Notes: generated by a model from the sequence alone, not told the origin. Shown: positions 692-63,649, counted from the first letter of the stretch. The stretch: DNA of 64,000 nucleotides from an uncultured virus (IMG/VR IMGVR_UViG_3300020049_001894) (IMGVR_UViG_3300020049_001894), one strand, 5' to 3'. Made by a program: numbers and translations.

Positions 692-711
692 TGCAACACA
701 AAGAGGTAAAA

Positions 712-971: not shown

Positions 972-988
972 AGAACTTGGAGAAGACT

Positions 989-1286: not shown

Positions 1287-1310
1287 GGCAAAACTTAACC
1301 GGAGAAAGCG

Positions 1311-36854: not shown

Positions 36855-36859
36855 TTCAA

Positions 36860-48150: not shown

Positions 48151-48152
48151 TC

Positions 48153-49151: not shown

Positions 49152-49227
49152 TTGGCAAATACAATCGACAGCCTGCTTTTTGTGGGCTAAAATTCAAAGC
49201 ATAACTAGATAACTATTGAGATTATTC

Positions 49228-49716
49228 ATGAAAAAGCCTCTACTATTCTCCCAGGCCGGTTCCGAGGTCGTACGGTATCACACCCTAACCACTCTGGTCA
49301 GGGAAACCGTCGGTCACCACTCCCACATGGTGGCGATGATCTGCTACATATTGCATCCGCAGTGTTCTCGTGACCTACTGCTGGCAGCGCTTACGCATGA
49401 TCTCGCCGAGCAAGCCACGGGAGACATTCCGTCGACCGCTAAGCGCCTGTACGGTGTTGATGACCAGGTGTCCTCTCTTGAAGACTCCGTAATGCGGGCC
49501 GCTGGGCTGGAGTTTCCACACCTAACGGACTACGAGAAGCGTATTCTCAAGCTAGCCGACGTTGCGCAGGGCGCGTTGTACTGCGTGCGTGAAATGCAGC
49601 TGGGTAACCGCATGATGCGCAAAGTGTTTGACCGCTACATGTCCTACGCTGCGGACATGGGCCTGATTGGTGTTGAAGAAGAACTGTTTGAAATCATCCG
49701 AGGAGAATCACTGTGA
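49228..49716 (+). CDS. HD-domain (YfbR-like) nucleotide phosphohydrolase
   Basis: RYH, ETVGHHS, HDLAE..TGDIP, KLAD. Confidence 0.85.
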   Translation: MKKPLLFSQAGSEVVRYHTLTTLVRETVGHHSHMVAMICYILHPQCSRDLLLAALTHDLAEQATGDIPSTAKRLYGVDDQVSSLEDSVMRAAGLEFPHLTDYEKRILKLADVAQGALYCVREMQLGNRMMRKVFDRYMSYAADMGLIGVEEELFEIIRGESL

Positions 49717-50129
49717 GCGAAGCAAATAATATTCAGGTGGGTGGGTCTCACTACAAGACTGAGGGTATGCAGCACTGGGATATTGTAGACGAGTTTGAAG
49801 TCTGCTACCTGGCGGGCAATGCCACCAAGTACCTCACCCGGTTCCGCCGCAAAAACGGTGTTCAAGACCTGCAAAAAGCTCAGCACTATATTGAGAAAAT
49901 GATTGAGGCTCGAGGTAAGTATGCTAGGCGCGCTGAGGGTGACGTACCATTGCCAGTGCTTGACACGTTCTTTGCTGACAACGGTATTACCGGTCCCGAG
50001 CGCGAGCCTATCCGCTTGGTGTTCAACTGGCTCACTCCACACGACCTACGCAGCGCCTCAGTTTGGGTCAAGGCTCTGATTGATGAGTTCGAGGCCGGGC
50101 CGACCTCCGCGTACGTCAAGCAAGACTGA
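49713..50129 (+). CDS. DUF3310-like protein
   Basis: QVGGSHY, GNATKY..R..KNG.QDL.KA.HY. Confidence 0.8.
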   Translation: MSEANNIQVGGSHYKTEGMQHWDIVDEFEVCYLAGNATKYLTRFRRKNGVQDLQKAQHYIEKMIEARGKYARRAEGDVPLPVLDTFFADNGITGPEREPIRLVFNWLTPHDLRSASVWVKALIDEFEAGPTSAYVKQD

Positions 50130-52316: not shown

Positions 52317-53087
52317 ATGGCAAAAGCTGAACAGAAACCTGCGGCCCCCGAGTGGCAAGCCGCGCTGCGTGTGGGCAAACAAAAAGTGCCCCCGCGCATT
52401 TGCATCTACGGGGGCCACGGCATCGGCAAGAGCACTATCGCGAGCCAGTTCCCTCGGCCAATCTTCATCAGCACTGAAGAGGGTATTGACCAGTTGGACG
52501 TAACCAGTTTCCCCAAGGCTCAGACCATCGGGGATGTGGTCGCATCTATCAAGACGCTTCTGAAAGAAGACCATGAATTTAAGACTGTGGTCGTTGACAG
52601 CGTGGACTGGCTGGTTGAGCCGCTCATCGTGGACAGTGTCAACTCGCAGTATGACGAGAAAGCCCAGGCGTACGGCAAGGGCTCAATGTACATTGCAGAA
52701 GAGTTTCGTGAGATCCTGCAAGGGTTGGACGCGCTGCGGTTGAAGAAAGGTATGAACGTAGTGCTCATTGCTCACGCTGCCGTGGTCAAATATCTTGATC
52801 CTCGCACAGACGAGTACGACAAATTTCAACCTAAGCTGCCAAAGGCGTGCAACGCGCTATTGCAAGAATGGGTTGACATCATGGCGTTCGCTGCTTTCAA
52901 AATCATCATCAAAAAGAGCGATGCAAAGGGTTTTGACGCGGCACGCACACGCGGGGTGACTACCGGGGACCGACTGTTACACCTGGTTGAAAACCCAGCG
53001 TATGTCGCTAAGAACCGCTACAACTGCCCAGATGAAATCGAAATGACAATTGAAAACTTGTCGAAACTGCTCCCCCTCGCTAACTAA
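52317..53087 (+). CDS. AAA ATPase, Sak4-like single-strand annealing protein
   Basis: YGGHGIGKST, VVDSVDWL, YGKG, IAH, AKNRY. Confidence 0.8.
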   Translation: MAKAEQKPAAPEWQAALRVGKQKVPPRICIYGGHGIGKSTIASQFPRPIFISTEEGIDQLDVTSFPKAQTIGDVVASIKTLLKEDHEFKTVVVDSVDWLVEPLIVDSVNSQYDEKAQAYGKGSMYIAEEFREILQGLDALRLKKGMNVVLIAHAAVVKYLDPRTDEYDKFQPKLPKACNALLQEWVDIMAFAAFKIIIKKSDAKGFDAARTRGVTTGDRLLHLVENPAYVAKNRYNCPDEIEMTIENLSKLLPLAN

Positions 53088-53107: not shown

Positions 53108-53593
53108 ATGGCTAAATTTAATTTTGATGTTTCTGAAGTCGACGTCAACGCAACGGTCTCCCGTGACCCTGTCCCCGCTGGGGACTACGTACTCAAGTGC
53201 CTGGAGGCTGAGGAAAAGCAGACCCGGTCCGGCGGCACTATGATCAAAGCGAAGTTCGAGGTGGTCGGTGGCGACTACGACGGCAAGTGGATCTGGGAGA
53301 ACTACAACATCGTCAACGCGAGTGAGAAAGCCCAGAACATCGGGCGTCAGCAGTTGGTCTCATGGGCTACCGCGTGCGGCAAGCCGGACGCTGATGACAC
53401 TGACAAACTGATTGACCGTAAGTTCACTGCTACGGTGGGCATTGAGATGGGAACTGGCGGGTACTCAGACAGCAACAAGATCAAGTCCTACCTGATGCCG
53501 GAAGCGGCTGAAAAGCCTGCCAAGGCTCCGGCTAAGGCGGCTGCGCGAGCGGCTAAGCCCGCTGCTGGTAAGACAGCAAACCCATGGGACTAG
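53108..53593 (+). CDS. DUF669-like ssDNA-binding protein
   Basis: PVPAGDY, N.IK.Y, Ala/Pro/Lys tail ending PWD. Confidence 0.75.
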   Translation: MAKFNFDVSEVDVNATVSRDPVPAGDYVLKCLEAEEKQTRSGGTMIKAKFEVVGGDYDGKWIWENYNIVNASEKAQNIGRQQLVSWATACGKPDADDTDKLIDRKFTATVGIEMGTGGYSDSNKIKSYLMPEAAEKPAKAPAKAAARAAKPAAGKTANPWD

Positions 53594-53647: not shown

Positions 53648-54493
53648 ATGGCTCTGATACCCCCCTCAAACACGCAGGAAATCATCAACCGGATTTACGC
53701 TGCAATCCACAAAGAAAAACAGGACAAAGAACTATACCTGGGTCGCCTGGGCTCATCCAGCATCGGCAACGAGTGCCCCCGGGCCACCTGGCTGAGCTGG
53801 CGCGCATTTGCCAAGTCTGAGTTCGAAGGCCGTATGCTGCGCCTGTTTGAGACCGGCCACCTGCAGGAAGCTCGCATCGTGGTTGACTTGAAGCGCGCGG
53901 GGTTCACGGTGTTTGAAGTTGACGCTGAAGGTAACCAGTTCCAGTACATTGACGAAACTGGCCACTTCACCACCAAGCTTGACGGTGTCATCAAAGGCGT
54001 GCCCGGGTCGTCTGATAAGCCGCACATTCTTGAGATCAAAACCCACAACAAGAACAGTTTTGCTGGGGTGGTGAAGCATGGGGTGCAGAAGTCCAAGCCG
54101 ATCCACTACGCTCAAGTGCAGTCTAGTATGAGCCTGAGCGGTATAGACCGCACCCTGTACGTGGCGCTCTGCAAGGACGACGAGCAGTTCTACGTAGAGC
54201 GTATCAAGGAAGACAAGACTGAGCAGAAGCTCATCGGTCGGCGCATTGTCAGCCTGGTAAATGCAACCATCCGCCCGGCTCGCATCAATGAAGACATTGA
54301 GTCTTTTGCGTGCAAGTTCTGCGACATGAAAGAAGTGTGTTTTGACAAAGTGGCCCCGCTGCGCAACTGCCGCACATGCCGCAACTGTTTTGCCGCCGAA
54401 GCAGGCTCATGGGAGTGCCGCCTAGGAGCTCCGCGTATCATTGACAAAGACATGCAGCGCTCTGGCTGCGGAGAGTACGAGGTTATATGCTAA
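53648..54493 (+). CDS. PD-(D/E)XK (Cas4-like) exonuclease
   Basis: SIGNEC.R, G...E, LDG, EIKT, YAQVQ, CKFC...C. Confidence 0.85.
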   Translation: MALIPPSNTQEIINRIYAAIHKEKQDKELYLGRLGSSSIGNECPRATWLSWRAFAKSEFEGRMLRLFETGHLQEARIVVDLKRAGFTVFEVDAEGNQFQYIDETGHFTTKLDGVIKGVPGSSDKPHILEIKTHNKNSFAGVVKHGVQKSKPIHYAQVQSSMSLSGIDRTLYVALCKDDEQFYVERIKEDKTEQKLIGRRIVSLVNATIRPARINEDIESFACKFCDMKEVCFDKVAPLRNCRTCRNCFAAEAGSWECRLGAPRIIDKDMQRSGCGEYEVIC

Positions 54494-54966
54494 TCGTCGC
54501 GATTGACCCTGGCCTTTCCGGCGCCATAGGGTTCCTCCGAAATGGCGTTTACGTAGCCGTAGAGGACATGCCGACCGTTGTCAAGGGGGTTGGCTCAGTC
54601 AAGCGCGAAGTCTCCCCTGCGGGGTTAAAACAGCTCATCCGTAAGCACCTAGTTGAAGGTGAGGAGGTTGTGGCAGTGTTGGAAAAGATAGGCCCTATGC
54701 CTGCCCAGGGCGTGTCATCAGTATTTAGTCTAGGAGACAGCTTCGGTTGCGCCAGGTCCATCCTGGTTAGCTTTGATTTTGAGCTACATCAAGTCACGCC
54801 GCAAGTATGGAAAAAGAGCTATAATCTAAGCTCGGACAAGGAGCAAGCGAGAGCCTTAGCTTCTCGTTTATTTCCAACTGCGCCTTTATACCTTAAAAAG
54901 CATGACGGTAGGGCAGAGGCGATTCTTATAGCTAAGTATCTGTATGAGTCAAAGTTCAAACGATAG
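54487..54966 (+). CDS. RuvC-like Holliday junction resolvase
   Basis: IDPGLSGA, LE, PQVWKK, DGRAEA. Confidence 0.85.
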   Translation: MLIVAIDPGLSGAIGFLRNGVYVAVEDMPTVVKGVGSVKREVSPAGLKQLIRKHLVEGEEVVAVLEKIGPMPAQGVSSVFSLGDSFGCARSILVSFDFELHQVTPQVWKKSYNLSSDKEQARALASRLFPTAPLYLKKHDGRAEAILIAKYLYESKFKR

Positions 54967-55687
54967 AATATATTATGTATATTCACATTCAAGAAATGAC
55001 ACGGGCGTGGTCTTTTATTATGGAAAAGGTAAAGGTGGCCGAGCTTATTACAAATATAGGAATAAATGGCACGACCACATAGTTAGCAAGGTTGGAATGA
55101 CTGTGACTATTTTATGCTCTGGGCTAACTGACGATGAAGCTAAGAAAGAAGAGATAAGATTGATACGTGAAGCCGCTAATTTAGGGTTTCCGCTAACTAA
55201 CCAAACCCCAGGGGGAGATGGTGTTGGAGGAGAAGCATCCCACCGAGGCGGGAGTAAGGCATTTGCTTTGAAACTAGGTATTCATGCCCCTGGCGTAGCT
55301 GCTAAAGGTGGAAGAGCGGGTGCCAAGACAATGATGGAGGCTAAGACTGGGTTGTTTGGTAGAAGTCCAGATGAGAGATCCAGAGACAGTAAAATTGCAG
55401 GACAGGTGGCGCATAATCGAAAGCTGGGTATATTTGCATATTCAGATGAAGAATTCAAAGAAGTGAGGTCACTGGGTGGTAAAAAAGCATCACGGATGCA
55501 GAAAGAAACTAAAACAGGAATATTTGGTCTTTCTAATGAAGAACTTTCTAAGAATGCGGTTAAAGCTGGTAAAGTTACCGGCTCTCAGCGTTGGAAATGT
55601 TTAGTATGCGGAATGACAACAACTCCTGGCAATTTAGGCAGGCACCAGAAAGACAGGGTGCACTCAGGTAAAGAGCGAATAGCGTGA
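54944..55687 (+). CDS. GIY-YIG-like homing endonuclease with internal repeats and C2H2-like finger
   Basis: YYVYSH..FYYGKG..RA, LTNQTPGGDG; K(L/T)G(I/L)(F/H) repeats; CLVCG..GRHQK..H; AT-rich. Confidence 0.75.
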   Translation: MSQSSNDRIYYVYSHSRNDTGVVFYYGKGKGGRAYYKYRNKWHDHIVSKVGMTVTILCSGLTDDEAKKEEIRLIREAANLGFPLTNQTPGGDGVGGEASHRGGSKAFALKLGIHAPGVAAKGGRAGAKTMMEAKTGLFGRSPDERSRDSKIAGQVAHNRKLGIFAYSDEEFKEVRSLGGKKASRMQKETKTGIFGLSNEELSKNAVKAGKVTGSQRWKCLVCGMTTTPGNLGRHQKDRVHSGKERIA

Positions 55688-55796
55688 TTGGCAAAAGCAA
55701 TCGATAACGCACTACCAGTTTGAAAATACAAACTGCTTGCCCGTTCTTTGCACTATACTTCAAAGTATAACTTAATAACTCTGAAAGGAAAATTGT

Positions 55797-55910
55797 ATGA
55801 CACCGCTAGAAAGACTTCACCGTGACCTCGGGGCACCTCGCTGGTTTTGGCCCGTGGTGCTAGTCGCGCTATTGCTAATTTTTGTCTTCGCGGGAGGGCT
55901 CATAGAATGA
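55797..55910 (+). CDS. 37-aa membrane peptide
   Basis: Own translation: MTPLERLHRDLGAPRWFWPVVLVALLLIFVFAGGLIE; AAAGGA RBS. Confidence 0.6.
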   Translation: MTPLERLHRDLGAPRWFWPVVLVALLLIFVFAGGLIE

Positions 55911-56020
55911 CTGATTGGTTTGACGAAATGGTCGGCACTTTGCGGGACTTTTTCACGGTCGTAGGCGTCGTATCAACGCTCGCATTTGTCCTTGGCTATT
56001 TTTGGGCGTTGCCGCTGTGA
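55907..56020 (+). CDS. 37-aa membrane peptide
   Basis: Own translation: MTDWFDEMVGTLRDFFTVVGVVSTLAFVLGYFWALPL; ATGA overlap. Confidence 0.55.
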   Translation: MTDWFDEMVGTLRDFFTVVGVVSTLAFVLGYFWALPL

Positions 56021-56214
56021 TGAACAAAATCTACCCATCCCGACTAACCACGGGCGAAGAGTACACCGGCAACCAGGCGTTCAAGGGTGCAGGCATCCAA
56101 CGCTGGTGCGCGAAGTGCGAAAGCCACCGGGCCACCGGCAACGGCTCGCATCAGCGCGTGCAGGGGGTTATGCAGTGGGTCTGCAAACAGCATCCGAAAG
56201 TGACCACAAAATGA
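56020..56214 (+). CDS. Small zinc-ribbon-like protein
   Basis: CAKC...CKQH. Confidence 0.55.
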   Translation: MNKIYPSRLTTGEEYTGNQAFKGAGIQRWCAKCESHRATGNGSHQRVQGVMQWVCKQHPKVTTK

Positions 56215-56281
56215 TCACTCTACGCTGCGGCAAATGTGGCCGCACATACCAAGGCTGGGGTCCATGCCCGTGGGGGTGCGT

Positions 56282-56728
56282 ATGACCCGCAAACGCAGCA
56301 ACTACCGCCCCCGTGCCGTCATCAAAGACGTCATGAGCTGGATCAAGCAGGGCCACGAACCCTTGACTGCGGACACAGACACCCACATGCGGATCGTTAC
56401 CCGCATACACGGCTCGGTGGTGGCCTTGCAAGGGGGCACTGCTGATGTCCACGACCTCAACGCACTTATCAGCGCGAGCAATATGGCGACGGGCTACAAG
56501 AACATCGACCTTGGACGCGACTATGAGCAAGAGATACGCGCAGGTGCACATGCCGTGGCTGCTGTGCGCGAGAGGTTGGTCAAGTGGCGCAAGGTGCAGG
56601 CCACTTCTACTGAGGTCGAAGCCGTCTCGCTCTTGGTGCAGATATGTCAAGCCCAGCTTGAGGCCAGCACGCGGGCTGATTTTGAGAAAGCAAGCGCCAT
56701 TGTGGCTCGGAACGGATGTGATGTATGA
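56282..56728 (+). CDS. Hypothetical phage protein
   Basis: MTRKRSNYRPR start; helical. Confidence 0.7.
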   Translation: MTRKRSNYRPRAVIKDVMSWIKQGHEPLTADTDTHMRIVTRIHGSVVALQGGTADVHDLNALISASNMATGYKNIDLGRDYEQEIRAGAHAVAAVRERLVKWRKVQATSTEVEAVSLLVQICQAQLEASTRADFEKASAIVARNGCDV

Positions 56729-56850
56729 CCACCCGACTAGCAGTTGCATTCGTTATCGGCATCCCCGTGCTGTGGGCCTGCTGGCTTGCATACAAGCTCG
56801 CTGAGTACGCGGTTCGGGGGTGGTATTGGATTAAAGGAGAAAAGACATGA
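56725..56850 (+). CDS. 41-aa membrane peptide
   Basis: Own translation: MTTRLAVAFVIGIPVLWACWLAYKLAEY...; ATGA overlaps. Confidence 0.5.
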   Translation: MTTRLAVAFVIGIPVLWACWLAYKLAEYAVRGWYWIKGEKT

Positions 56851-56942
56851 CAACAGGAGCCGAGCAATTGGCAAACGAACTCGTCGGTGGCTATTCTGAG
56901 TCTACATGGCCGCTCAGTGGTCGCCGCTTTTAGGAGTTGGTT

Positions 56943-57161
56943 ATGAGTGAACTACTAGAGGCCGCCAGAGCGGTCATTACCTGGCATGAACGTTGGCCTA
57001 AATTAGCGCCGATTCAGTGCCCACGCATGCCAGATGGGAGGGCACTTGCCTGCCGCTGCAACACGATTTGCTGCCATGAGCGTCTGCGCTTGGCAATCGC
57101 CACGGAAGACAGCATGCAACATAACGCCGGAGACAAGCCGCCGCAGGTCGGCCTTGATTGA
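56943..57161 (+). CDS. Cassette-borne Cys-rich hypothetical protein
   Basis: AGGAG RBS; ATG within GTTATG; ends HNAGDKPPQVGLD inside the attC-like site. Confidence 0.65.
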   Translation: MSELLEAARAVITWHERWPKLAPIQCPRMPDGRALACRCNTICCHERLRLAIATEDSMQHNAGDKPPQVGLD

Positions 57162-57171
57162 CCTGTTAAAT
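57119..57171 (-). repeat. attC-like site (53 bp)
   Basis: ACATAAC GCCGG AGACAAGCCG CC GCA GG T CGGCCTT G ATT GACCT GTTAAAT. Confidence 0.85.
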
Positions 57172-57194
57172 GACAAACCTTTGAACGGAGAAAG

Positions 57195-57401
57195 ATGATG
57201 CACACGATACCAAAACACTTGGGCGAATTTACCGCACTGGCCCAAGGTAAAACCGATTACACAGTGCAAGTGATACACACCAACCCCGAGTCGTATGGCG
57301 ACTTGATGACGATCTGCGCGACAGAGGGAGCGGTGTACATCACACGCGAGCAGGCGAAAGCGTTTTTTGGGTTGGTTGAACCTTTGCCATTTAACGCATA
57401 G
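57195..57401 (+). CDS. Cassette-borne hypothetical protein
   Basis: GGAGA RBS; ends LPFNA. Confidence 0.7.
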   Translation: MMHTIPKHLGEFTALAQGKTDYTVQVIHTNPESYGDLMTICATEGAVYITREQAKAFFGLVEPLPFNA

Positions 57402-57442
57402 CTGCCCGGTGCGAAGCATCCGCGCCGAGCGTTGAGTTAAAC
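57389..57442 (-). repeat. attC-like site (54 bp)
   Basis: ATTTAAC GCATA GCTGCCCGG TGC GAA GCA T CCGCGCC G AGC GTTGA GTTAAAC. Confidence 0.85.
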
Positions 57443-57470
57443 CGAATTTTTACCGGAGAAGGAATAGAAC

Positions 57471-57665
57471 ATGAAAGACAAGCTGATTGCAGCAGGCGTG
57501 AAAAACTTGCGCGAATTTGGCTACCCAAAATGCAACGCAGAAAACATTTTGACCGACATGGTTTACAAGGCATTTTTTGTCTCAATGCTTAAAGACAACA
57601 AGGGGCACTCGCCACAAGTAGACAAGGCCATTGACGAATTGTTGACGATCTGCAATGCGGTTTAA
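57471..57665 (+). CDS. Cassette-borne hypothetical protein
   Basis: Stop is the TAA of GTTTAAC. Confidence 0.75.
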   Translation: MKDKLIAAGVKNLREFGYPKCNAENILTDMVYKAFFVSMLKDNKGHSPQVDKAIDELLTICNAV

Positions 57666-57746
57666 CGCAGAAGTGAAAGGCGACACCAAATGACCACCGA
57701 ACAACCAACCCCGCCGCCAGTCGTCCTTTCGACTGCCCTGTTAAAC
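57660..57746 (-). repeat. attC-like site (87 bp) with a start codon in its loop
   Basis: GTTTAAC GCAGA AGTGAAAGG CGAC [loop] GTCG T CCTTTC G ACT GCCCT GTTAAAC. Confidence 0.85.
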
Positions 57747-57974
57747 CCTTTGCCGTGCCCATTTTGCGGCCATGTTGGGCTTGACTTCCGTGAAGGCACC
57801 ACGTTCCGCTGGATCATCGCGAAGTGCGGCGGCTGCGGTGCAACACGCGGAGAGACGTGCATACAGACCCTAGGCCAAGGGACAAAAGACGAGTGGATGC
57901 AGGAAGCGCAACAAGATGCCATTGCAATCTGGAACACGAGGTTTAACGCAGAAATAACCGGCTTGTCCGGTTGA
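57690..57974 (+). CDS. Lar-like restriction-alleviation family zinc-finger protein (cassette-borne)
   Basis: LPCPFCG...CGGCGA...AIAIWNTR signature. Confidence 0.75.
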   Translation: MTTEQPTPPPVVLSTALLNPLPCPFCGHVGLDFREGTTFRWIIAKCGGCGATRGETCIQTLGQGTKDEWMQEAQQDAIAIWNTRFNAEITGLSG

Positions 57975-57988
57975 TTGCCCGGTTATCG
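57941..57988 (-). repeat. attC-like site (48 bp, minimal)
   Basis: GTTTAAC GCAGA AATAACCGG CTTG T CCGGTT G ATT GCCCG GTTATCG. Confidence 0.85.
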
Positions 57989-58014
57989 GGCTGGAACAGA
58001 AATAGGAGATTGAA

Positions 58015-58311
58015 ATGCTGAATCCAGAAGACTCAAACATGGCAGCGAATGCAATTTGTCATGCCGCACTAATGTGTCAAGAGGCGTTCCGCCAAGCCAC
58101 TCACGGGTACGGAACCCCAAGCGCAATCTACAAGCCAAAGTTGTTTGTAGACGGAAACCAGTGGTGCGCGCTGCTTGGGGAAAACATCCAAGTAGGCGTG
58201 TGCGGGTTTGGATCCACGCCACACCATGCAATGGCTGCGTTTGACCGAGCGTGGTTTGCGCCTCTGCCAGATAACGCCGGAAATAAGCCGCCGCAGGTCG
58301 GCCTTGATTGA
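58015..58311 (+). CDS. Cassette-borne hypothetical phage protein
   Basis: DGNQWCALLGENIQ.GV.GFG.TP; ends DNAGNKPPQVGLD. Confidence 0.75.
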   Translation: MLNPEDSNMAANAICHAALMCQEAFRQATHGYGTPSAIYKPKLFVDGNQWCALLGENIQVGVCGFGSTPHHAMAAFDRAWFAPLPDNAGNKPPQVGLD

Positions 58312-58321
58312 CCTGTTATGT
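58269..58321 (-). repeat. attC-like site (53 bp)
   Basis: AGATAAC GCCGG AAATAAGCCG CC GCA GG T CGGCCTT G ATT GACCT GTTATGT. Confidence 0.88.
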
Positions 58322-58334
58322 GACGGGGTGAGCC

Positions 58335-58715
58335 ATGCCATACAAAGACAAAGCGAAAAAGGTAGCGAATGGGAAAGCCTACTACGCGGCCAACAAAGAG
58401 CGCATAGACGCACGAAACGCCGCGTATAGGGCTTTGCATCTTGACGAGGAACGTCAGCGGCAAATCGCATGGCGAACGGAAAACAGAGACAGAAGCAACG
58501 CAATAAAAGCGAAGCACAAGGCCGCAAACCCTGACAAGGTTGCCGCCCAAGCCAAGAAGGAACGCGACACGCTGGCCGATGGGTATGTGAGAAAAAAGAT
58601 AGCGCAGGTGTACGCAATACCTGCGGCGCAGATACCGGAGCCGCTGGTAGGCGCACACCGTGAATTATTAAAACTCAAACGGGAGATATGGAAATGCAGA
58701 ACTGTGACGAACTAA
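58335..58715 (+). CDS. Basic helical protein (first gene of a two-gene cassette)
   Basis: Lys/Arg-rich YYAANKER-type repeats. Confidence 0.7.
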   Translation: MPYKDKAKKVANGKAYYAANKERIDARNAAYRALHLDEERQRQIAWRTENRDRSNAIKAKHKAANPDKVAAQAKKERDTLADGYVRKKIAQVYAIPAAQIPEPLVGAHRELLKLKREIWKCRTVTN

Positions 58716-58909
58716 GGGCAGAACTGGCGCAGATCTTTGCGCAGCTAAAGGACGGTGCAATTAAGCCGAGCGAAGCCGCCGAACTGGCGAACCTAGCCGG
58801 GAAGATGATCGGCAGCGCGAAGGTGCAGGTTGAGTATTACGCGCTGCGAAAAGAACAGCCGCGTATAGAGTGGCTGGAGTCACATAACGCAGAGGTGAGT
58901 GGCGCGTAG
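58688..58909 (+). CDS. Hypothetical protein (second gene of a two-gene cassette)
   Basis: GGAG RBS; ends HNAEVSGA in the attC-like site. Confidence 0.7.
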   Translation: MEMQNCDELRAELAQIFAQLKDGAIKPSEAAELANLAGKMIGSAKVQVEYYALRKEQPRIEWLESHNAEVSGA

Positions 58910-58935
58910 CGTCCCGCTCGACTGCCCTGTTAAAC
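58882..58935 (-). repeat. attC-like site (54 bp)
   Basis: ACATAAC GCAGA GGTGAGTGG CGC GTA GCG T CCCGCTC G ACT GCCCT GTTAAAC. Confidence 0.85.
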
Positions 58936-58952
58936 AATACTGAAAGAAAGCA

Positions 58953-59129
58953 ATGTTCTCAATACATTTTCACAAGCCTCCGCAATGGCACTGGATGCCG
59001 AGCACACACCAAGTGGTGCAGTTTCTGCCAAACAGCAAGTATTGCCACGGGTGCTGCGTCTATCAGTGGCTTTTCATCGGCATTGAATTACGCCTCAAAG
59101 TTTTCGAGCAATCGAGGCTTGAGTGGTGA
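58953..59129 (+). CDS. Cassette-borne 58-aa protein (below the ORF-track cutoff)
   Basis: Own translation: MFSIHFHKPPQWHWM...SRLEW; fills the cassette exactly. Confidence 0.55.
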   Translation: MFSIHFHKPPQWHWMPSTHQVVQFLPNSKYCHGCCVYQWLFIGIELRLKVFEQSRLEW

Positions 59130-59130
59130 T

Positions 59131-59181
59131 GTTTAACGCAGAAATCAGCGCCCGTAGGTGCGATGGATTGCCCGGTTATCG
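59131..59181 (-). repeat. attC-like site (51 bp)
   Basis: GTTTAAC GCAGA AATCAGCGC CC GTA GG T GCGATG G ATT GCCCG GTTATCG. Confidence 0.82.
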
Positions 59182-59205
59182 GGCTGGAACAAATATAGGA
59201 GAGAA

Positions 59206-59301
59206 ATGATGAAACTTGTATGTATACACCGATGGACACTGATGACCGATTACCCGCCGCACTATTCGCGGTGCAGTAAATGCGGAGCAACTAAATCATG
59301 A
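59206..59301 (+). CDS. 31-aa zinc-finger-like peptide (cassette-borne)
   Basis: AGGAG RBS; CIHRW...CSKCG. Confidence 0.55.
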   Translation: MMKLVCIHRWTLMTDYPPHYSRCSKCGATKS

Positions 59302-59447
59302 AACCCAACATTTATTCAAAGATCATTTACATCGTTCTTTTCGGTTTCTTCGCTTCGCCATTTCTGCTGATCGGCCTGCTTGCCGGTGCTATATGGATTT
59401 CGCTTAGGACGGGCTGGTGGTGGGCAGAAAAGTTCGGCAACTTGTAA
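59298..59447 (+). CDS. 49-aa membrane peptide (cassette-borne)
   Basis: ATGA overlap; IIYIVLFGFFASPFLLIGLLAGAIWISL. Confidence 0.55.
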   Translation: MKPNIYSKIIYIVLFGFFASPFLLIGLLAGAIWISLRTGWWWAEKFGNL

Positions 59448-59451
59448 TGCC

Positions 59452-59580
59452 AGATAACGCGATGTATACCGCAAAACCTGCAATATAACGTGGCAACTTG
59501 CAGCATAAAAACAGCCTCTAGCCCATGCCAAATAAGGCTAGAGTGCTCATCTAAAAATAGCACGAAAGGATGTAGAAATG
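59452..59580 (-). promoter_or_regulatory. attI-like site plus conserved block, copy 2
   Basis: Minus strand GGTATAC-ATCGC-GTTATCT; homologous to 1876-2004. Confidence 0.6.
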
Positions 59581-59973
59581 AACCCAACAAAAATTGAGAT
59601 AATGAACCCAACAAAAATTAAGATCGTCGTCCAGGGCGTACCTGTGCCCACTGACGACGCTTGGGTAGTAACACGGCATGAGGATATTGCACTGGTAGTC
59701 TTGGACATGCAAACTAAATGGTGTGTACTCGGAGCAACCTCCGGCGTATACGACAGGGAATCAAAGCTGTACACGCCATGTGTGCACATCTCCCCTACGG
59801 ATCGGGCCATGCAAATCGTTGCAGGGCGTGACATGACTGATGACGACATGGACACAGAAATTGCATTCCCAGAATTCCAAGGCTGGGATATAGCTGTGTC
59901 GGATTGCCAGCGGTACACGCTGAGTGTGTGCTTCACAAAACGGGCCGGAACAAACGAAGGAGATAAGCAATGA
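59578..59973 (+). CDS. Hypothetical protein with a duplicated 8-codon N-terminus
   Basis: MNPTKIEI MNPTKIKI; C-terminal part matches 1..221. Confidence 0.7.
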   Translation: MNPTKIEIMNPTKIKIVVQGVPVPTDDAWVVTRHEDIALVVLDMQTKWCVLGATSGVYDRESKLYTPCVHISPTDRAMQIVAGRDMTDDDMDTEIAFPEFQGWDIAVSDCQRYTLSVCFTKRAGTNEGDKQ

Positions 59974-60062
59974 GCAAACAATCGAACGCCAAAGAAGCCC
60001 AGCAATATGTGGCAAAAGCACCCCCGCAAACGTGCGGGGTGTGCAGGAATTGCGTGCCCGTG
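59753..60062 (+). repeat. Long direct repeat, copy 2 of 1-310
   Basis: Direct alignment by eye. Confidence 0.95.
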
Positions 60063-60221
60063 ATTGGTGCAGTGCTGATCTATAAAAACCCTAAGTCAAT
60101 CGCCGATGGGACGCATTACGTGGATGCTCAGGTGGCCCAGAAGTGCGGCATTGGCGGCTTCGCGGTGAAGAAAATGGGCACTTGCCGCATGTGGTTGCCA
60201 CTTCTGCCAGATAACGACTGA
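59970..60221 (+). CDS. Cys-rich hypothetical protein (eroded cassette)
   Basis: CGVCRNC...CGIGGFAVKKMGTC; ends LPDND in the attC-like site. Confidence 0.7.
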   Translation: MSKQSNAKEAQQYVAKAPPQTCGVCRNCVPVIGAVLIYKNPKSIADGTHYVDAQVAQKCGIGGFAVKKMGTCRMWLPLLPDND

Positions 60222-60268
60222 AATAACCGGCACGCTTTAGCGTGTCCGGGTTGATTGACGGGTTAGCC
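60209..60268 (-). repeat. attC-like site (60 bp)
   Basis: AGATAAC GACTG AAATAACCGG CACGC TTTA GCGTG T CCGGGTT G ATT GACGG GTTAGCC. Confidence 0.85.
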
Positions 60269-60335
60269 GTGCGCCCGATGAATGCACGGCGACTGATGAG
60301 GATTTGAACATGACCGCAGTGGCCTGGGAACAGAA

Positions 60336-60569
60336 ATGAACTACATCACAAAGACGACGAGCGTGACAGTGCTGCCAGAAGGCGAGCCGCTGTACTCTGA
60401 AATGGCAACTGAAATCAAGATGACAGACGATGAAGGCGGCTGGGAGTTTGTTGAGGTGGTGCAGAGTGGCAGAACGGATGTCGGTAAGATATGCATTGCC
60501 CCCGAAGAGTGGCCTGCAATCCGCGATGCGGTTGACTCGATGATTAAACAATGTGGGGGCGCGAAATGA
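60336..60569 (+). CDS. Hypothetical phage protein
   Basis: DDEGG.EFVEV.Q..I.PEEWP..R.A motif. Confidence 0.7.
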   Translation: MNYITKTTSVTVLPEGEPLYSEMATEIKMTDDEGGWEFVEVVQSGRTDVGKICIAPEEWPAIRDAVDSMIKQCGGAK

Positions 60570-60862
60570 CGCCTCGCCAACGAGAAATCCTTGAAGCCAT
60601 GCGCCACGGGCCAATGACAGCAGTTGAGCTGTCAAAGACTACCAGCATAGGCCGCAGTTGGATGAGCGATCTGCTGGCCGCAGTACACAAAGCTGGGCTG
60701 ACTGAGCGCTACGAGCGCAAGCCCGGCGCTACGGGCAGCAACTGGGAGTACGTCTACAGCTTGTCTGACGCTGGGCGTAAAGCGATTGGGCTGGATACGA
60801 GCGGGAACAACCCGTTTTTATGGCGTAGCTTTAAGCAGCCTGTGGCGATGGGGGCGATATGA
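60566..60862 (+). CDS. Winged-HTH protein; paralog of 2002..2289
   Basis: Shares MTPRQREILE and GNNPFLWR..KQPVAMGA. Confidence 0.75.
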   Translation: MTPRQREILEAMRHGPMTAVELSKTTSIGRSWMSDLLAAVHKAGLTERYERKPGATGSNWEYVYSLSDAGRKAIGLDTSGNNPFLWRSFKQPVAMGAI

Positions 60863-60934
60863 TGAATCAATTTTCAAAAGGGTTTATGCGATGATTTACA
60901 TTCTAATCATGGTGATTTTTATTCTGGCTGACCT

Positions 60935-61156
60935 ATGACCACTCTACCCGACCACCTCAAGGCTCTGGAGTCTCGCTTGGGACTCACGGAGCCACAAGCG
61001 GCTAGGTACCTCGGGGTGCCTGTCACCACTTATCGCAAGTGGCGCAATGGGACACGGAAGCCGGGGAGTGTGGTGTATCGAGTGTTGTTTCTGGTGCAGT
61101 TGATTGAACGGGCTGCGCCAGATGCTCACAGGATTTTATTGGAGGATGTGAAATGA
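60935..61156 (+). CDS. XRE/Cro-like HTH protein
   Basis: LGLTEPQAARYLGVPVTTYRKWRNG.RKP. Confidence 0.8.
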   Translation: MTTLPDHLKALESRLGLTEPQAARYLGVPVTTYRKWRNGTRKPGSVVYRVLFLVQLIERAAPDAHRILLEDVK

Positions 61157-61158
61157 AC

Positions 61159-61179
61159 AAAGCCCCTCGCGGGGCTTTT
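61159..61179. terminator. Bidirectional terminator between convergent genes
   Basis: AAAGCCCC-TCGC-GGGGCTTTT. Confidence 0.75.
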
Positions 61180-61180
61180 C

Positions 61181-63649
61181 TCATTGTCCTCTGACTATTG
61201 GCCGACCATGCGGTGACAGTCGGTATATCTCCTCCAGTTGCCGCTGCTTCGCCTGAATCACACCTTCACGGTACTCTTGGAACATGGACATGAGAGCCGG
61301 GTTAATCGCCCATTCGGCATGGTGCTGGTGTTCCCGTGATCCGTCATCCACTCGCATAACCCAGCAGGCTTTCTCCATAGCGCTCATGGCTTGGATAACA
61401 GTGGTATCGTTTTGGAACGAGTTGCCCATCAGTTGCCGACGACCTGAGTTCTTGATTGTGGTCAGGGTCAGTGTGCCCTTGTCGCAGTTGTGGATGATGT
61501 AGTCGGTAAGCCACATATCGAAGTTGCTGACCTCACCGATCTCCCCAAGGGCGTACTTGAATGCCGGGATCAGGTAGGAGCGCACGAGGTGGACTACTCG
61601 CTCCACGACACCCTCCTCTACTTCGGTGCTGAACGGACTCTCTATCAGGTGGAACACCAGCACCAGACGGCCTACGGTGCCCTCCAGCTTGCCGTAGGCG
61701 GTCATGAACGAGTCAGTGGCTTGGAGTAGACGCTCGTCCTGCTTGCGCCCCTCGTACCACATTTGAAACTCGCGGAACTTAACATGTGCCCCGGCGCTCA
61801 GGCGGTATGTGGTCGGATTAAGCGCATAGACTATGCGCAGAGTTTGCTCCCATTGGTCCTTGTTCGTCAGGTAATCGGGAACCGGGTTATTCAGTTTGGT
61901 CTTGGTGTGGTGCAGCACAGCAGGCAGGAACCGCTGGATCAGACCATCGGTGGCCATGGCCTTGAGATGCTCCTTGAACACGGCTGGCTGGCAGTTGCCG
62001 TAGATCGAGACGGCGAAGTTGTCACAGTGGATGCTCCCTGTACCAACCCGGTCCATGTCATACGATTCAGACTCGTAACCTACGACCCATGCAGAACGAT
62101 CCTCGCCGCCCATCTTGTCGGTCAGCTTGCGAATCCATGAGTTCATCTCGTCGAGGTAGCACAGCAGCCCACGGGGGCGCTCTGCTGCGTGACGCACGAG
62201 CTTCTGACTGGTGATGTCCGAAACGGTGATCTTGACCGGCACTGGCTGCGGGGGCAGATCGGGGATCGGTGGGGGTTCACCACCCATCAGGAACTCAGGG
62301 GTTGCTGCGTACTCAAGCGATGCCTTCTTTGCCGCTGCGTAGCTGGCCTCTTTCAGTTCCCAATCGAGTAGGTCTTTACGAAACCGGGGGTGATCCTCGC
62401 CCTCCAAGTCCTTGAGTAGCGTCATCATGGGGCGGCTACCCGGCGACTTCTTGTCCCCTGGATCACCGATGGTCATTAGCCACAGGATGGGAGGGACGCG
62501 GAAGCCCTCCATTAGCTCCAGCCGTGTCCGGGCATCCACTACCCCACAGACAGCAGCCAGACCAGCCCAGAGGGGAACCAAGGGGTCGCAACCCACCGCG
62601 CTACTGATCTCAGACGAGCGGGTTGCCAGTACCTTTGGGACAAGGGTCATGTCCAGTTCAGGAGGAGTTGGGCGCATCCCGCTCAATACGGAGCCGGGAG
62701 CCGTGGGGATGGTGCCCGTGGCCTTGAACAGTCCTGCGATGTCGGGCATGGGGCGCACCCACCCGTGATCCCGCGCGATGTGAAACAAGGTGCCTACCTT
62801 GACACTGTTCACCTTGTCCGACTTAAAGCTGTTCCACTGTGTCAGCATCTCCCGCTCACCGGGGTACTTGGCTTCGCTCTGCTTGCTCCACTCGTTCCAC
62901 AGGTACAGTGCTTGGTCAAGCTGGTTTGTCTGTGTACCTGCCCACTGTAGCGCCATGCCCACGTTCACCCACTCGTCACGGGAGCAGTCAGCAGGGATGT
63001 GCTCCACAGCCTTGCGAATATCTTCCCATGTGGCACCCAGCGCATCCGTGGTGCCGTCGATCCGCACACGCTCTTGATTCAGGAGTCCTTGCCACAGTGC
63101 GAGGACAGACTCTGGAATCTGGGGGAGGCGCATCCAGTTACCACGACCTGCCCAGCGATAGGGTTGATTGGTCTGAGGGTGGATGCTTGGTGGCAAGACA
63201 TCCTGCACCGTGGCACCGTTCGATGTGGCACAGCGCAACTCGTACACCGTGGCCCCGCCGATGATGATCTTCTTGCTAGGTAACACGACACCCGGAGGCA
63301 TGGCATAGAGTAGCTTACCGTGCCCTGCCCTCCCGCTGTCCACGATGACCGCATCCTGTGCATCATAGAGAGCGTTCAGGTCTACACCGTGACCCAGCAA
63401 CACGTTGACCGCTACACCCCAATCGTCTATGTCCAGCGCCATCGTTCCGCTGTAAGCATGTGCCAACCCGATACCGAAGCCGGGGGGTAGCTCTGTCTGT
63501 GACTTGAGGGTGTTCTGTTGCAGGTTCCACCCGATAGTACGTGGACCTTTGGACGAGGGTGGGATCGGTACAAGTGCCCAGCCGTGTCGGAGGTATGCGT
63601 CTACGCTTGCGGGGTGCTGGGCAACTTGGGGGTGAAGGACTGCGTTCAT
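61181..63649 (-). CDS. Second primase: Prim-Pol, PriCT-2-like and DUF3987/YfjI-like helicase domains
   Basis: YLRHGWALVPIP, ALDID, VLPPSIHP, WVNVGMAL, GDPGDKKSP, DEM, DGLIQRF. Confidence 0.85.
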   Translation of the reverse strand: MNAVLHPQVAQHPASVDAYLRHGWALVPIPPSSKGPRTIGWNLQQNTLKSQTELPPGFGIGLAHAYSGTMALDIDDWGVAVNVLLGHGVDLNALYDAQDAVIVDSGRAGHGKLLYAMPPGVVLPSKKIIIGGATVYELRCATSNGATVQDVLPPSIHPQTNQPYRWAGRGNWMRLPQIPESVLALWQGLLNQERVRIDGTTDALGATWEDIRKAVEHIPADCSRDEWVNVGMALQWAGTQTNQLDQALYLWNEWSKQSEAKYPGEREMLTQWNSFKSDKVNSVKVGTLFHIARDHGWVRPMPDIAGLFKATGTIPTAPGSVLSGMRPTPPELDMTLVPKVLATRSSEISSAVGCDPLVPLWAGLAAVCGVVDARTRLELMEGFRVPPILWLMTIGDPGDKKSPGSRPMMTLLKDLEGEDHPRFRKDLLDWELKEASYAAAKKASLEYAATPEFLMGGEPPPIPDLPPQPVPVKITVSDITSQKLVRHAAERPRGLLCYLDEMNSWIRKLTDKMGGEDRSAWVVGYESESYDMDRVGTGSIHCDNFAVSIYGNCQPAVFKEHLKAMATDGLIQRFLPAVLHHTKTKLNNPVPDYLTNKDQWEQTLRIVYALNPTTYRLSAGAHVKFREFQMWYEGRKQDERLLQATDSFMTAYGKLEGTVGRLVLVFHLIESPFSTEVEEGVVERVVHLVRSYLIPAFKYALGEIGEVSNFDMWLTDYIIHNCDKGTLTLTTIKNSGRRQLMGNSFQNDTTVIQAMSAMEKACWVMRVDDGSREHQHHAEWAINPALMSMFQEYREGVIQAKQRQLEEIYRLSPHGRPIVRGQ

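What the first reader, a model, noticed from the sequence alone, without database searches (positions are those of the whole stretch)
56943..60268. All cargo ORFs are antisense to the canonical cassette orientation
Seen: the unpaired G and T lie on the 3' arm of the plus-strand hairpin, and every cargo ORF is on the plus strand. Established: extrahelical G and T mark the recombinogenic bottom strand of attC, and in classical integrons most ORFs are on the top strand, read from Pc at attI. Site 58269 on the plus strand closely resembles my recollection of the aadA-type attC bottom strand. Inference: here each gene follows its own attC and is transcribed toward attI, probably from a phage promoter near 55.7 kb, so the newest cassette would be promoter-distal. 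This inverted design suggests a phage-specific cassette pool rather than captured host cassettes.
Basis: partly seen in the sequence, partly recalled or inferred. Interest (0 to 1): 0.8.

Follow-up and report, generated by a model that had tools for sequence, protein, structure and literature searches.

The report
Back-to-front integron cassettes in phage
This uncultured phage carries a row of small swappable genes separated by the folding recombination sites of bacterial integrons, but each gene lies on the opposite strand from the usual one, so phages seem to keep a mirror-image pool of cassettes, some of them counter-defence genes.

Summary
Window 56.9-60.3 kb holds 8 complete attC-type hairpins and one half-site between about 12 small plus-strand ORFs. 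A second, different array lies at 1-2 kb (3 sites and a half-site).

A covariance model of the phage sites read on the plus strand finds real class 1 integron attCs only on the strand antisense to aadA1, aadA2, cmlA and psp. A model of those five real attC bottom strands finds 7 of the 11 phage sites at E<0.05, all on the plus strand. In 10 of 10 bacterial loci that hold an intI homolog, the modelled strand runs toward intI. The unpaired base on the 3' arm is G in 74 of 75 sites.

The plus-strand ORFs are the real genes (Lar domain, ribosome-binding sites, amino-acid conservation). So each gene follows its attC on the bottom strand.

The same design recurs in viral contigs: 51 of 65 sites against 0, and 56 of 64 against 8. 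Bacterial arrays of the same attC family carry Pfam-supported genes on the top strand. No integrase was found in the phage, so a host IntI is inferred, not shown. The promoter and attI claims are unsupported.

Phage CALINs are in print (Qi 2023); I did not find the reversed polarity there. Four earlier notes of this scan report it on other DNA.

The parts
56943..57161 (+). First array ORF (72 aa). Its last 14 codons and its stop lie inside site A.
   Evidence: no Pfam or PHROG match
57119..57171 (+). attC-type site A (bottom strand on +)
   Evidence: R1 52.3 bits; R2 28.9 bits, E 1.8e-5
57195..57401 (+). Cargo ORF, 68 aa, ribosome-binding site GGAGA, starts 23 nt after site A
57389..57442 (+). 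attC-type site B (85% like the site at 918-971)
   Evidence: R1 60.6 bits; R2 only 12.1 bits
57471..57665 (+). Cargo ORF, 64 aa; its stop is the TAA inside the 5' R box of site C
57660..57746 (+). Long attC-type site C (87 nt). Unpaired T and G on the 3' arm. Its loop holds the start codon of the Lar-like ORF.
   Evidence: R1 52.9 bits; R2 28.1 bits; hand pairing
57690..57974 (+). Lar-like restriction alleviation protein, 94 aa
   Evidence: PF14354 2.3e-8, 34.6 bits against cut-off 28.6; phrog_599
57941..57988 (+). attC-type site D. The same hairpin precedes a homologous cassette in bacterial array L087.
   Evidence: R1 53.7 bits; R2 18.5 bits
58015..58311 (+). Cargo ORF, 98 aa; 66% identical to an ORF behind a site in viral locus L050; ends inside site E
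58269..58321 (+). attC-type site E (90% like A); the closest to the aadA-type bottom strand
   Evidence: R2 39.9 bits, E 1.5e-8; R1 56.9 bits
58335..58909 (+). Two overlapping cargo ORFs (126 aa and 73 aa) in one cassette
   Evidence: 91% and 83% protein identity to L014 in the + frame, against 68% for the minus-strand shadow ORF
58882..58935 (+). attC-type site F
   Evidence: R1 60.2 bits; R2 21.4 bits
58953..59129 (+). Cargo ORF, 58 aa
59131..59181 (+). attC-type site G
   Evidence: R1 51.7 bits; R2 only 10.5 bits
59206..59447 (+). Two small cargo ORFs (31 aa with Cys pairs; 49 aa hydrophobic)
59452..59577 (+). Half-site module H: a 5' R box (AGATAAC) followed by about 120 nt that is not an attC. 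Conserved with 1876-2001 of the second array.
   Evidence: 79% identity over 145 nt; recurs behind a cassette ORF in 7 distinct viral contigs
59578..60221 (+). ORFs of 131 aa and 83 aa. The 83-aa ORF has a 74% homolog behind a D-type site in bacterial array L087.
60209..60268 (+). attC-type site I, with unpaired T and G on the 3' arm. Its downstream leader is also seen in L017 and L078.
   Evidence: R1 48.8 bits; R2 22.0 bits
1..2001 (+). Second array: sites at 918-971, 1235-1286 and 1589-1642, an H-like half-site from 1876, and five or more + ORFs. Bases 1-310 are 94.8% identical to 59753-60062.

Best explanation
The region is an integrase-less cluster of integron attC sites (a CALIN) at the far end of the phage's plus-strand replication and early gene block.

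Shown:
- The hairpins belong to the same attC family as the aadA-type sites of class 1 integrons and the sites of beta-, gamma- and deltaproteobacterial chromosomal integrons.
- The sense strand of the cargo genes is the attC bottom strand, the strand that integron integrase folds and recombines. Each cassette therefore reads: attC, then a short leader with a ribosome-binding site, then the gene, which stops at or inside the 5' R box of the next attC.
- Units move between phages with breakpoints at the R boxes.
- Cargo with a known family is counter-defence or DNA-modification: Lar here; DNA methylases, RNA ligase and Acb2/Tad1 in sister arrays.

Inferred:
- The cassettes are cut out and inserted by an integron integrase supplied by the host, since the phage has none.
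- Transcription is read-through from the upstream phage operon.
- The reversal places the recombining strand on the non-template strand. If the genes run with the replication fork, that is also the lagging-strand template, which would favour folding and fast turnover. The reversal would also keep phage cassettes silent when a host integron captures them.
For: attC identity and strand:
- R1, built on the phage + strand, hits real class 1 attCs only antisense to their genes.
- R2, built from five real bottom strands, hits 7 of 11 phage sites at E<0.05, all on +.
- In 10 of 10 bacterial loci with an intI homolog, intI lies 3' of the sites on the strand R1 matches.
- The L-box helix is 96.8% paired, and all 5 of its pairs show compensatory changes, against 0 of 500 shuffles for the covariation score.
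- The unpaired base is G in 74 of 75 sites.

Gene strand: Lar Pfam hit; 91% against 68% protein identity for the + and minus frames; 51 of 65 viral and window sites have a ribosome-binding site and start downstream on the site strand, 0 of 65 on the other strand; an independent pattern-defined viral set gives 56 of 64 against 8.

Contrast: Pfam-supported ORFs lie on the top strand in 7 bacterial arrays (10 ORFs). They lie on the bottom strand in 4 loci (5 ORFs); three of these are phage or prophage contexts and the fourth is integron L078.

Mobility:
- Shared units are bounded by R boxes.
- Metagenome contigs join 57389 to 57661 (runs X1 and X5), 57662 to 58885 (X6, 248 letters on the shorter side) and 57943 to 58885 (X5), each within 9 letters shared by two 5' R boxes.
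- The best run holds only 0.33 of the array's sampled words.
- Three IMG/VR contigs of relatives break at or just before the array start.

IntI link:
- L078 is a chromosomal integron (ilvD, Fic, IntI) whose cassettes all point toward intI. It includes a C5 methylase and a site nearly identical to one in viral locus L017.
- L087 holds a D-type site plus a 74% homolog of window ORF 59970-60221 on the bottom strand, among host cassettes of normal polarity.

Cargo: of 55 distinct ORFs behind sites, matches over the Pfam cut-off were N6_N4 methylase (2), Dam, RNA ligase, HNH (2) and Acb2/Tad1.

Strand and folding background: the bottom strand recombines about 1000-fold better than the top strand, and a lagging-template position favours folding and excision (passages of PMC13108822).
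Against: - No integron integrase or any tyrosine recombinase was found in the window or in G001. Of 22 array-bearing viral records, 20 have no tyrosine recombinase, and the 2 that do fall below the IntI cut-off. The host is unknown, so no enzyme is shown.
- Half of the left breakpoints of shared units lie at the 3' R box rather than the 5' R box. One metagenome joint (57164 to 57436) and two rearranged joints also lie at 3' boxes. Bottom-strand crossover alone does not explain these.
- Joints are resolved only to 9 shared letters, and they come from contigs, not reads.
- Four of the 11 sites (B, G, 918, 1589) score at noise level or weakly with the class 1 model R2.
- The ribosome-binding-site test is mixed in bacterial loci: 46 on the site strand and 28 on the other, of 113. 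The attC subtype is not phage-specific.
- There is no expression evidence, and the rationale for the reversal is inference only.
- The window may be a wrap-around or chimeric assembly.
Confidence: 0.7

Rival explanations
1. The sites descend from attCs, but the phage shuffles them itself. Its annealing and recombination proteins (Sak4-like 52317-53087, SSB-like 53108-53593, Cas4-type exonuclease 53648-54493, RuvC-like resolvase 54487-54966) recombine co-infecting genomes at the 10-30 nt conserved blocks: the 5' R box with its spacer, and the 3' spacer and R box with the leader. No integron integrase would be needed.
For: - These recombination genes lie just upstream of the array.
- No IntI was found in the window, in G001 or in 22 viral records.
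- Breakpoints occur at both conserved blocks: 5 left ends at the 5' box and 5 at the 3' box; 3'-box joints occur.
- The 3' block plus leader is shared by sites D, G and 1589 although their hairpins differ.
Against: - Right ends of shared units sit at the 5' R box of the next site in at least 8 comparisons, and at its 3' box only where the whole next site is shared. Simple homology does not predict that asymmetry.
- The hairpin is kept by compensatory changes, with G as the unpaired base in 74 of 75 sites. That points to recognition of a folded strand.
- Phage-type cassettes sit beside attI and intI in L078 and inside array L087, in the polarity that integrase insertion would give.
Confidence: 0.2
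2. The hairpins serve mainly at the RNA level in the polycistronic phage message, as processing sites, weak terminators or translation couplers. Their likeness to attC would then be only ancestry.
For: - They lie on the sense strand, so the mRNA carries the bottom-strand fold.
- Each is followed at 16-30 nt by a ribosome-binding site and a start codon.
- Stops of upstream ORFs fall inside them.
- attC sites are thought to contain weak terminators (passage of PMC9892861).
Against: - An RNA role does not explain unit exchange bounded by R boxes, or the same units inside bacterial integrons.
- No Rfam family matched.
- An RNA role could coexist with recombination and would not replace it.
Confidence: 0.07
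3. The array has ordinary polarity, the real genes being the long minus-strand ORFs (57003-57419, 58069-58656, 59547-60029, 60237-60635).
For: These minus-strand ORFs are longer than the plus-strand ones, and a greedy ORF caller picks them.
Against: - They cross attC sites.
- None matched Pfam or PHROGs.
- None has a ribosome-binding-site start next to a site.
- They are less conserved in protein than the overlapping + frame: 68% against 91%, and 48% against 60%.
- The Lar domain is on +.
Confidence: 0.02

Closest known systems
[quoted passage not shown] I read the abstract, all of section 3.4 and passages. The supplement could not be read.
   Same: Both are integrase-less attC clusters in virulent-type phage genomes with small ORFs and methylase-type cargo. 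That paper showed 5 of 6 phage attCs recombining with IntI1, the bottom strand better than the top.
   Different: - The paper describes the TJE1 and PH101 cassettes as having the typical structure. It does not discuss genes lying on the bottom strand.
- In TJE1 my model gave only a weak match (10.3 bits, E 2.8). It lies between orf2 and orf3 on the strand opposite the genes, which is the ordinary polarity.
- Here there are 8 complete sites in one array, and all genes are on the bottom strand.
- The supplementary tables, which I could not read, may hold strand calls that bear on this.
Classical integron cassettes and attC sites (class 1; aadA1, aadA2, psp, qacH, cmlA1 in MH445380)
   Same: Shared architecture: a 7-nt R box, a 5-6 nt unpaired spacer, a 3-bp L box, an unpaired G, an upper stem and a loop. 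There is also sequence likeness: site E scores 39.9 bits against the model of five real bottom strands. Arrays are compact, with stop codons falling in the R box.
   Different: - In classical cassettes the gene is on the top strand with the attC behind it, and expression comes from Pc beside attI and intI.
- Here the gene is on the bottom strand with the attC in front of it.
- There is no intI, attI or Pc.
Reverse-oriented cassettes in sedentary chromosomal integrons, mostly toxin-antitoxin cassettes with their own promoters. This is recalled. The passages I read in PMC13108822 concern inversion of the whole array.
   Same: The genes are antisense to the array's usual reading direction.
   Different: Those are a minority within normal arrays and carry their own promoters. 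Here every gene of the array is reversed, and the genes are co-oriented with the upstream phage operon.
Promoter-early stem-loop (PeSL) mobile regulatory cassettes of T4-type phages (recalled, no call)
   Same: Repeated intergenic stem-loops flank small early genes that are shuffled among related phages.
   Different: PeSLs are promoter-plus-hairpin units thought to recombine by homology. The present hairpins match attC models and occur in bacterial integrons. No promoter signal above chance was found.

Membership tests
Integron attC site | Imperfect inverted repeats forming the R box (RYYYAAC ... GTTRRRY) | tested here: met
   Of the four core TAAC/GTTA pairs, two are invariant and two are kept in 73 and 70 of 74 distinct sites. 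The three outer pairs are paired in only about half. That fits a hybrid R box.
Integron attC site | L box next to an unpaired spacer, with an extrahelical G on the 3' arm of the bottom strand | tested here: met
   The L helix is 96.8% paired, and all 5 of its pairs show compensatory changes. The unpaired base is G in 74 of 75 sites. It aligns with the unpaired G of aadA1, psp, qacH and aadA2.
Integron attC site | Second extrahelical base (T) nearer the loop | tested here: inconclusive
   By hand pairing: T in C, F, I and 1589; C in A and E; none in D and G; B and 918 ambiguous. Minimum-energy folds were inconsistent.
Integron attC site | Recognised by a structure-and-sequence model of accepted attC sites | tested here: met
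   R2, built from five class 1 attCs, hits 7 of 11 sites at E<0.05. The other 4 score 10.5-14.8 bits. IntegronFinder's own model was not available.
Integron attC site | Recombined by an integron integrase as a folded bottom strand | not testable with these tools
   Indirect only: R-box-bounded units and phage-type cassettes beside attI and intI in L078.
Complete integron | intI gene next to the array | tested here: not met
   No PF00589 match among 82 window ORFs. tblastn with the L078 IntI found nothing in the window or the viral loci. G001 has none.
Complete integron | attI site and Pc promoter at the array end | tested here: inconclusive
   Only the half-site module H (59452-59577) sits where attI would be. 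It has a 5' R box but no known attI features. No promoter signal above chance.
[quoted passage not shown] | Two or more attC sites close together, with no intI nearby | tested here: met
   8 complete sites in 3.2 kb, all on one strand; no intI.
Canonical cassette polarity | Gene on the top strand, with the attC 3' of its own gene | tested here: not met
   The genes are on the bottom strand. Units co-inherit the upstream hairpin, not the downstream one alone.

The most novel reading that the evidence does not exclude
Phages of integron-bearing proteobacteria keep their own mirror-image integron cassette pool, largely of counter-defence genes, and borrow the host's integrase to shuffle it. The reversal is adaptive. 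It puts the recombining strand on the non-template (and probably lagging-template) strand, so arrays turn over fast during infection. It also makes phage cassettes silent when a host integron captures them, and host defence cassettes silent if a phage array captures them. Attc-guided mining of viral contigs would then be a direct route to new anti-defence genes, the counterpart of bacterial integrons as defence-gene banks.
Probability: 0.35. Interest if true: 0.85.

Novelty: new variant of a known kind. Interest (0 to 1): 0.7.

Why it matters
Integrons are known as bacterial gene-capture devices, and recently as stores of anti-phage defence cassettes (10.1101/2024.07.02.601686, passages).

Here the phage side shows the same recombination sites used back to front, across at least 80 viral contigs. 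The recognisable cargo is restriction alleviation, orphan methylases, RNA ligase and an Acb2/Tad1 domain.

If a host integrase drives this, both sides of the arms race draw on one recombination system, with strand polarity separating the two expression pools. It would also explain why assemblies of these phages break at this locus. And it offers a simple handle, attC followed by a leader and an ORF, for finding small counter-defence genes.

My three literature searches found phage CALINs but no account of the reversed polarity.

Tried and rejected
- **Rfam:** no match at gathering thresholds over the window.
- **GenBank phages:** blastn of 55700-61200 found no match. The DNA polymerase's best relatives are below 40% identical.
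- **Own assembly:** not held.
- **Single-sequence folding:** DNA minimum-energy folds, free and constrained, gave inconsistent structures. The constraint was not enforced in some cases. I did not use them to call the strand.
- **Promoter and terminator scan:** not above shuffles, and nothing at 55.7 kb.
- **Paper supplement:** the supplement of PMC9892861 could not be read.
- **Accession AY046276:** not in the collections.
- **TJE1:** only a 10.3-bit match, too weak to stand alone.
- **First viral pattern scan:** 46 loci, about what I estimated chance would give; that estimate is my own and comes from no call. 22 of the 46 carried R1 matches, as did G001's own locus L036.
- **attC subtype:** the idea that the subtype (GAAATAA...TTGATTG) marks phage cassettes inside bacterial genomes failed. 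Pattern sites gave 21 on the site strand and 16 on the other, of 42.
- **First cassettes of L083, L113 and L071:** no Pfam match on either strand, so their polarity stays open.
- **Sequencing runs:** run X1 is labelled RNA-Seq, but the tool rates it as probably DNA. All four runs laid were contigs, so they give no evidence on expression, strand or transcript ends. Stretches of the array without cover in these runs mean nothing.
- **Integrases in G004 and G019:** ordinary tyrosine recombinases below the IntI cut-off.

Full report
**What the window is.** It is an uncultured tailed phage.
- Structural and packaging genes lie on the minus strand from about 2.4 to 43 kb: terminase, a Mu gpT-like head protein and lysozyme.
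- A plus-strand block runs from 43 to 61 kb. It holds thymidine-hypermodification genes (5-hmdU DNA kinase, amino acid:DNA transferase, a thymidylate-synthase homolog), a DNA polymerase, a Sak4-like annealing protein, an SSB-like protein, a Cas4-type exonuclease, a RuvC-like resolvase and a homing-endonuclease-like ORF.
- The finding lies at the far end of that block.
- No GenBank phage matches the region in DNA. Rfam gives nothing.

**The observation.** Between the small plus-strand ORFs of 56.9-60.3 kb lie eight complete hairpin sites (A-G and I; coordinates) and one half-site (H).

A second, different array lies at 1-2 kb with three complete sites and an H-like half-site.

All sites share one layout: a 7-nt R box with a TAAC/GTTA core, a 5-6 nt unpaired spacer, a 3-bp L box, an unpaired G on the 3' arm, and a variable upper stem and loop (alignment A1).

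A covariance model of the 11 sites as read on the plus strand (R1) scores them at 48.8-63.3 bits. Nothing else in the 64 kb exceeds 13.6 bits on either strand.

**Which strand is which.** I made three tests.

1. *R1 on a textbook array.* I ran R1 on the estX-psp-aadA2-cmlA1-aadA1 class 1 integron carried by phage P1 record MH445380. It found the attCs behind psp, aadA1, qacH, aadA2 and, weakly, cmlA1 (35.2, 31.3, 25.9, 25.8 and 13.0 bits). All were on the strand opposite the annotated cassette genes.

2. *The reciprocal model.* R2 was made only from those five real bottom strands, with a structure computed by RNAalifold. That structure shows two unpaired bases on the 3' arm. In the window R2 finds E (39.9 bits, E 1.5e-8), A, C, 1235, I, F and D on the plus strand. 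Sites 1589, B, G and 918 score 10.5-14.8 bits. R2 finds none of the sites on the minus strand at E<=10.

3. *Geometry in bacterial integrons.* A pattern scan of bacterial genomes gave 60 loci, in which R1 gave 116 matches over 45 loci. Every locus has all its sites on one strand. In all 10 loci that hold a homolog of an integron integrase, intI lies 3' of the sites on the same strand as the R1 matches. Of 25 genomes tested, 17 have an IntI over the NCBIfam cut-off. That is the bottom strand of a classical integron.

On 75 aligned sites the L-box helix is 96.8% paired. All five of its pairs show compensatory changes, and no shuffle of 500 reaches the observed covariation. The unpaired base is G in 74 of 75.

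**Which strand codes.**
- ORF 57690-57974 (+) matches the Lar restriction-alleviation family over the cut-off.
- None of seven long minus-strand ORFs matches Pfam or PHROGs.
- Against relative L014, the plus frame of 58335-58715 is 91% identical in protein and the overlapping minus ORF 68%. Against L038 the figures are 60% and 48%.
- Of 65 sites in the window and in viral relatives, 51 have a start with a ribosome-binding site and an ORF of at least 30 aa within 70 nt downstream on the site strand. None has one on the other strand. L013, L020 and L029 are near-duplicate contigs and were all counted.

**Is it a habit of phages?** R1 found 60 sites in 23 of 48 IMG/VR loci, in arrays of up to five.

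An independent pattern scan gave 91 viral stretches. Of 64 testable sites, 56 have the downstream start on the site strand and 8 on the other.

In bacterial loci the same crude test is mixed: 46 on the site strand and 28 on the other, of 113. I therefore used Pfam on the longest ORF of each inter-site interval on both strands (110 ORFs).
- Ten supported ORFs lie on the top strand, in seven arrays: L075, L095, L087, L090, L121, L071 and L080.
- Five lie on the bottom strand, in four loci: L104, L092, L094 and L078.
- Three of those four are phage or prophage contexts: Gp157 in L104, a tail protein in L092, and a prophage-type integrase in L094.

The attC subtype itself is not phage-specific.

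**The fourth locus, L078.** It is a chromosomal integron next to ilvD and a Fic gene. Its IntI is followed upstream by cassettes whose ORFs all point toward intI. They include a C5 methylase, and one site is nearly identical to a site of viral locus L017. The array ends in a half R box at the attI junction.

**Locus L087.** This Rhodoferax array has 87-nt host attCs and top-strand genes (GNAT, HEAT repeats). It also holds two short phage-type sites, each followed by a bottom-strand ORF. One of these is a D-type hairpin with the same leader and a 74% homolog of window ORF 59970-60221.

These two loci show phage-type cassettes inside real integrons, in the polarity that integrase insertion would give. 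This is the best, though indirect, evidence that an integron integrase moves them.

**Units and breakpoints.** In all-against-all comparisons of the arrays, shared units end 2-4 nt past the C of the next site's 5' TAAC in at least eight comparisons. They begin 3 nt before that C of their own site in five comparisons, and at the 3' spacer or R box in five. A gene is never shared with the downstream hairpin alone.

Contigs of four public runs laid on the array (three wastewater, one aquatic) join:
- 57389 to 57661 (two runs);
- 57662 to 58885 (248 letters on the shorter side);
- 57943 to 58885.

Each of these joints lies within nine letters shared by two 5' R boxes. That is where bottom-strand crossover (TAA|C) would fall.

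One joint (57164 to 57436) and two rearrangements lie at 3' boxes.

Bins holding sites reach up to hundreds of times the summed contig depth of neighbouring ORF-only bins, although several site bins do not exceed them. No run holds more than a third of the array's sampled words. Contigs of three relatives stop at or just before the array start.

Together these results show a hypervariable, modular locus. The 3'-box breakpoints are not explained by bottom-strand crossover alone. Homologous exchange in the conserved 3' block and leader, or rare top-strand events, may add to it.

**Mechanism.**

*Shown:* attC identity, strand, gene polarity, modular exchange at R boxes, and the occurrence of such cassettes in integrons.

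*Inferred:*
- The enzyme is a host integron integrase. The window, G001 and 20 of 22 viral records have no tyrosine recombinase, and the two exceptions are not IntI.
- Expression is by read-through. No promoter signal above chance was found, and a hairpin terminator closes the block at 61159-61178.
- A rationale for the reversal. The bottom strand recombines about 1000-fold better than the top strand, and it folds best on the lagging-strand template (passages of PMC13108822). With genes on the bottom strand, that strand is the non-template strand. If the genes run with the fork, it is also the lagging-strand template. That would favour turnover. It would also leave phage cassettes antisense to Pc when a host captures them.

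None of this rationale is tested.

**Cargo.**
- Lar-like protein in the window.
- Among 55 distinct ORFs behind sites in sister arrays, matches over the Pfam cut-off were two N6_N4 methylases, Dam, an RNA ligase, two HNH proteins and an Acb2/Tad1 hairpin domain.
- The remaining 46 or so have no family.

**Comparison with what is known.** Qi et al. 2023 (PMC9892861) screened 10,705 phage genomes and reported 17 CALINs. Five of six phage attCs recombined with IntI1 (abstract, section 3.4 and passages). They call the TJE1 and PH101 arrays typical in structure.

My model gives only a weak match in TJE1, in the ordinary polarity.

Three literature searches and term searches in two integron preprints found no account of phage arrays with genes on the bottom strand. 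The supplement of Qi et al. could not be read and may hold strand calls.

Four earlier notes of this scan report the same reversed design on other DNA. They are unchecked AI notes and not independent support.

**Caveats.** The window may be a wrap-around or chimeric assembly.
- Bases 1-310 repeat 59753-60062 at 94.8%.
- G001 matches 12974-56887 at 99.9% and 511-2271 at 99.4%, but nothing from 60.9 to 64 kb.
- A second Prim-Pol gene sits at 61181-63649, besides the one at 37724-39802.

This does not touch the sites or their polarity, which recur in many contigs.

**Verdict.** The main interpretation (reversed cassettes, a phage pool) is supported. The attI, promoter and cassette-age claims are not.

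It is a new variant of a known kind.

Noticed in passing
window 1-2289 against 56.9-60.9 kb; G001: The window holds two different cassette arrays. Bases 1-310 are 94.8% identical to 59753-60062. The HTH gene 2002-2289 is a 69% (DNA) relative of 60551-60862. G001 (62.4 kb) covers 12974-56887 and 511-2271, and its ends fall in the array. The window may wrap round a circular genome into a variant, or it may be chimeric.
   Followed up: partly
window 59452-59577 and 1876-2001: Module H begins with a 5' R box (TAAC) and continues for about 120 nt without an attC hairpin. It contains a 6-bp inverted repeat and a terminator-like hairpin. It recurs directly behind a cassette ORF in 7 distinct viral contigs: L049, L017, L050, L016, L022, L030 and L032 (two further rows, L198 and L195, are second loci of L049's and L017's contigs). 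In L017 and L049 it lies behind the last R1-detected cassette, in L030 and L022 between sites. It could be an array terminus, an attI-like junction or the scar of the first insertion.
   Followed up: partly
window 57119-57171 and 58269-58321: Sites A and E encode nearly the same C-terminal tail and stop (..NAG(D/N)KPPQVGLD*) for two unrelated upstream ORFs. So the next cassette's attC supplies the end of the preceding protein.
   Followed up: no
window 57660-57746: The 87-nt site C carries the ribosome-binding site and the ATG of the Lar-like ORF inside its 5' arm and loop. The 3' arm is coding sequence.
   Followed up: no
window 61181-63649 (-) and 37724-39802 (-): There are two Prim-Pol primase-helicase genes of different build: PriCT_2 with DUF3987 against PriCT_2 with AAA_25. 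The first lies in the part that G001 does not cover. It may belong to another element or variant.
   Followed up: no
window 44037-50129: A thymidine-hypermodification gene set: 5-hmdU DNA kinase domains, an amino acid:DNA transferase, a thymidylate-synthase homolog, an HD phosphohydrolase and a DUF3310 kinase-like protein.
   Followed up: no
window 680-690 and 310: A lone 3' half-site (GACCTGTTAGG) follows ORF 337-681 with no 5' half. Homology between the two arrays breaks at 310/60062 inside the 83-aa ORF, not at a site. Not all rearrangements are site-specific.
   Followed up: no
L078 3004-6088 (Methylotenera MAG contig): A chromosomal integron (ilvD, Fic, IntI) whose visible cassettes all carry ORFs on the bottom strand pointing at intI. 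They include a C5 DNA methylase and small Cys-rich proteins. The first cassettes of integrons L083 and L113 look similar but lack Pfam support.
   Followed up: partly
L094 5090-5317 (Aromatoleum anaerobium contig, prophage-like): A cassette behind an attC-type site encodes an Acb2/Tad1 hairpin domain (1.2e-16), a known anti-CBASS/anti-Thoeris sponge family. It lies next to a Dam methylase cassette.
   Followed up: no
window 54944-55687 and 36141-36950: Homing-endonuclease-like ORFs: phrog_314, and a NUMOD3 motif between the terminase subunits.
   Followed up: no
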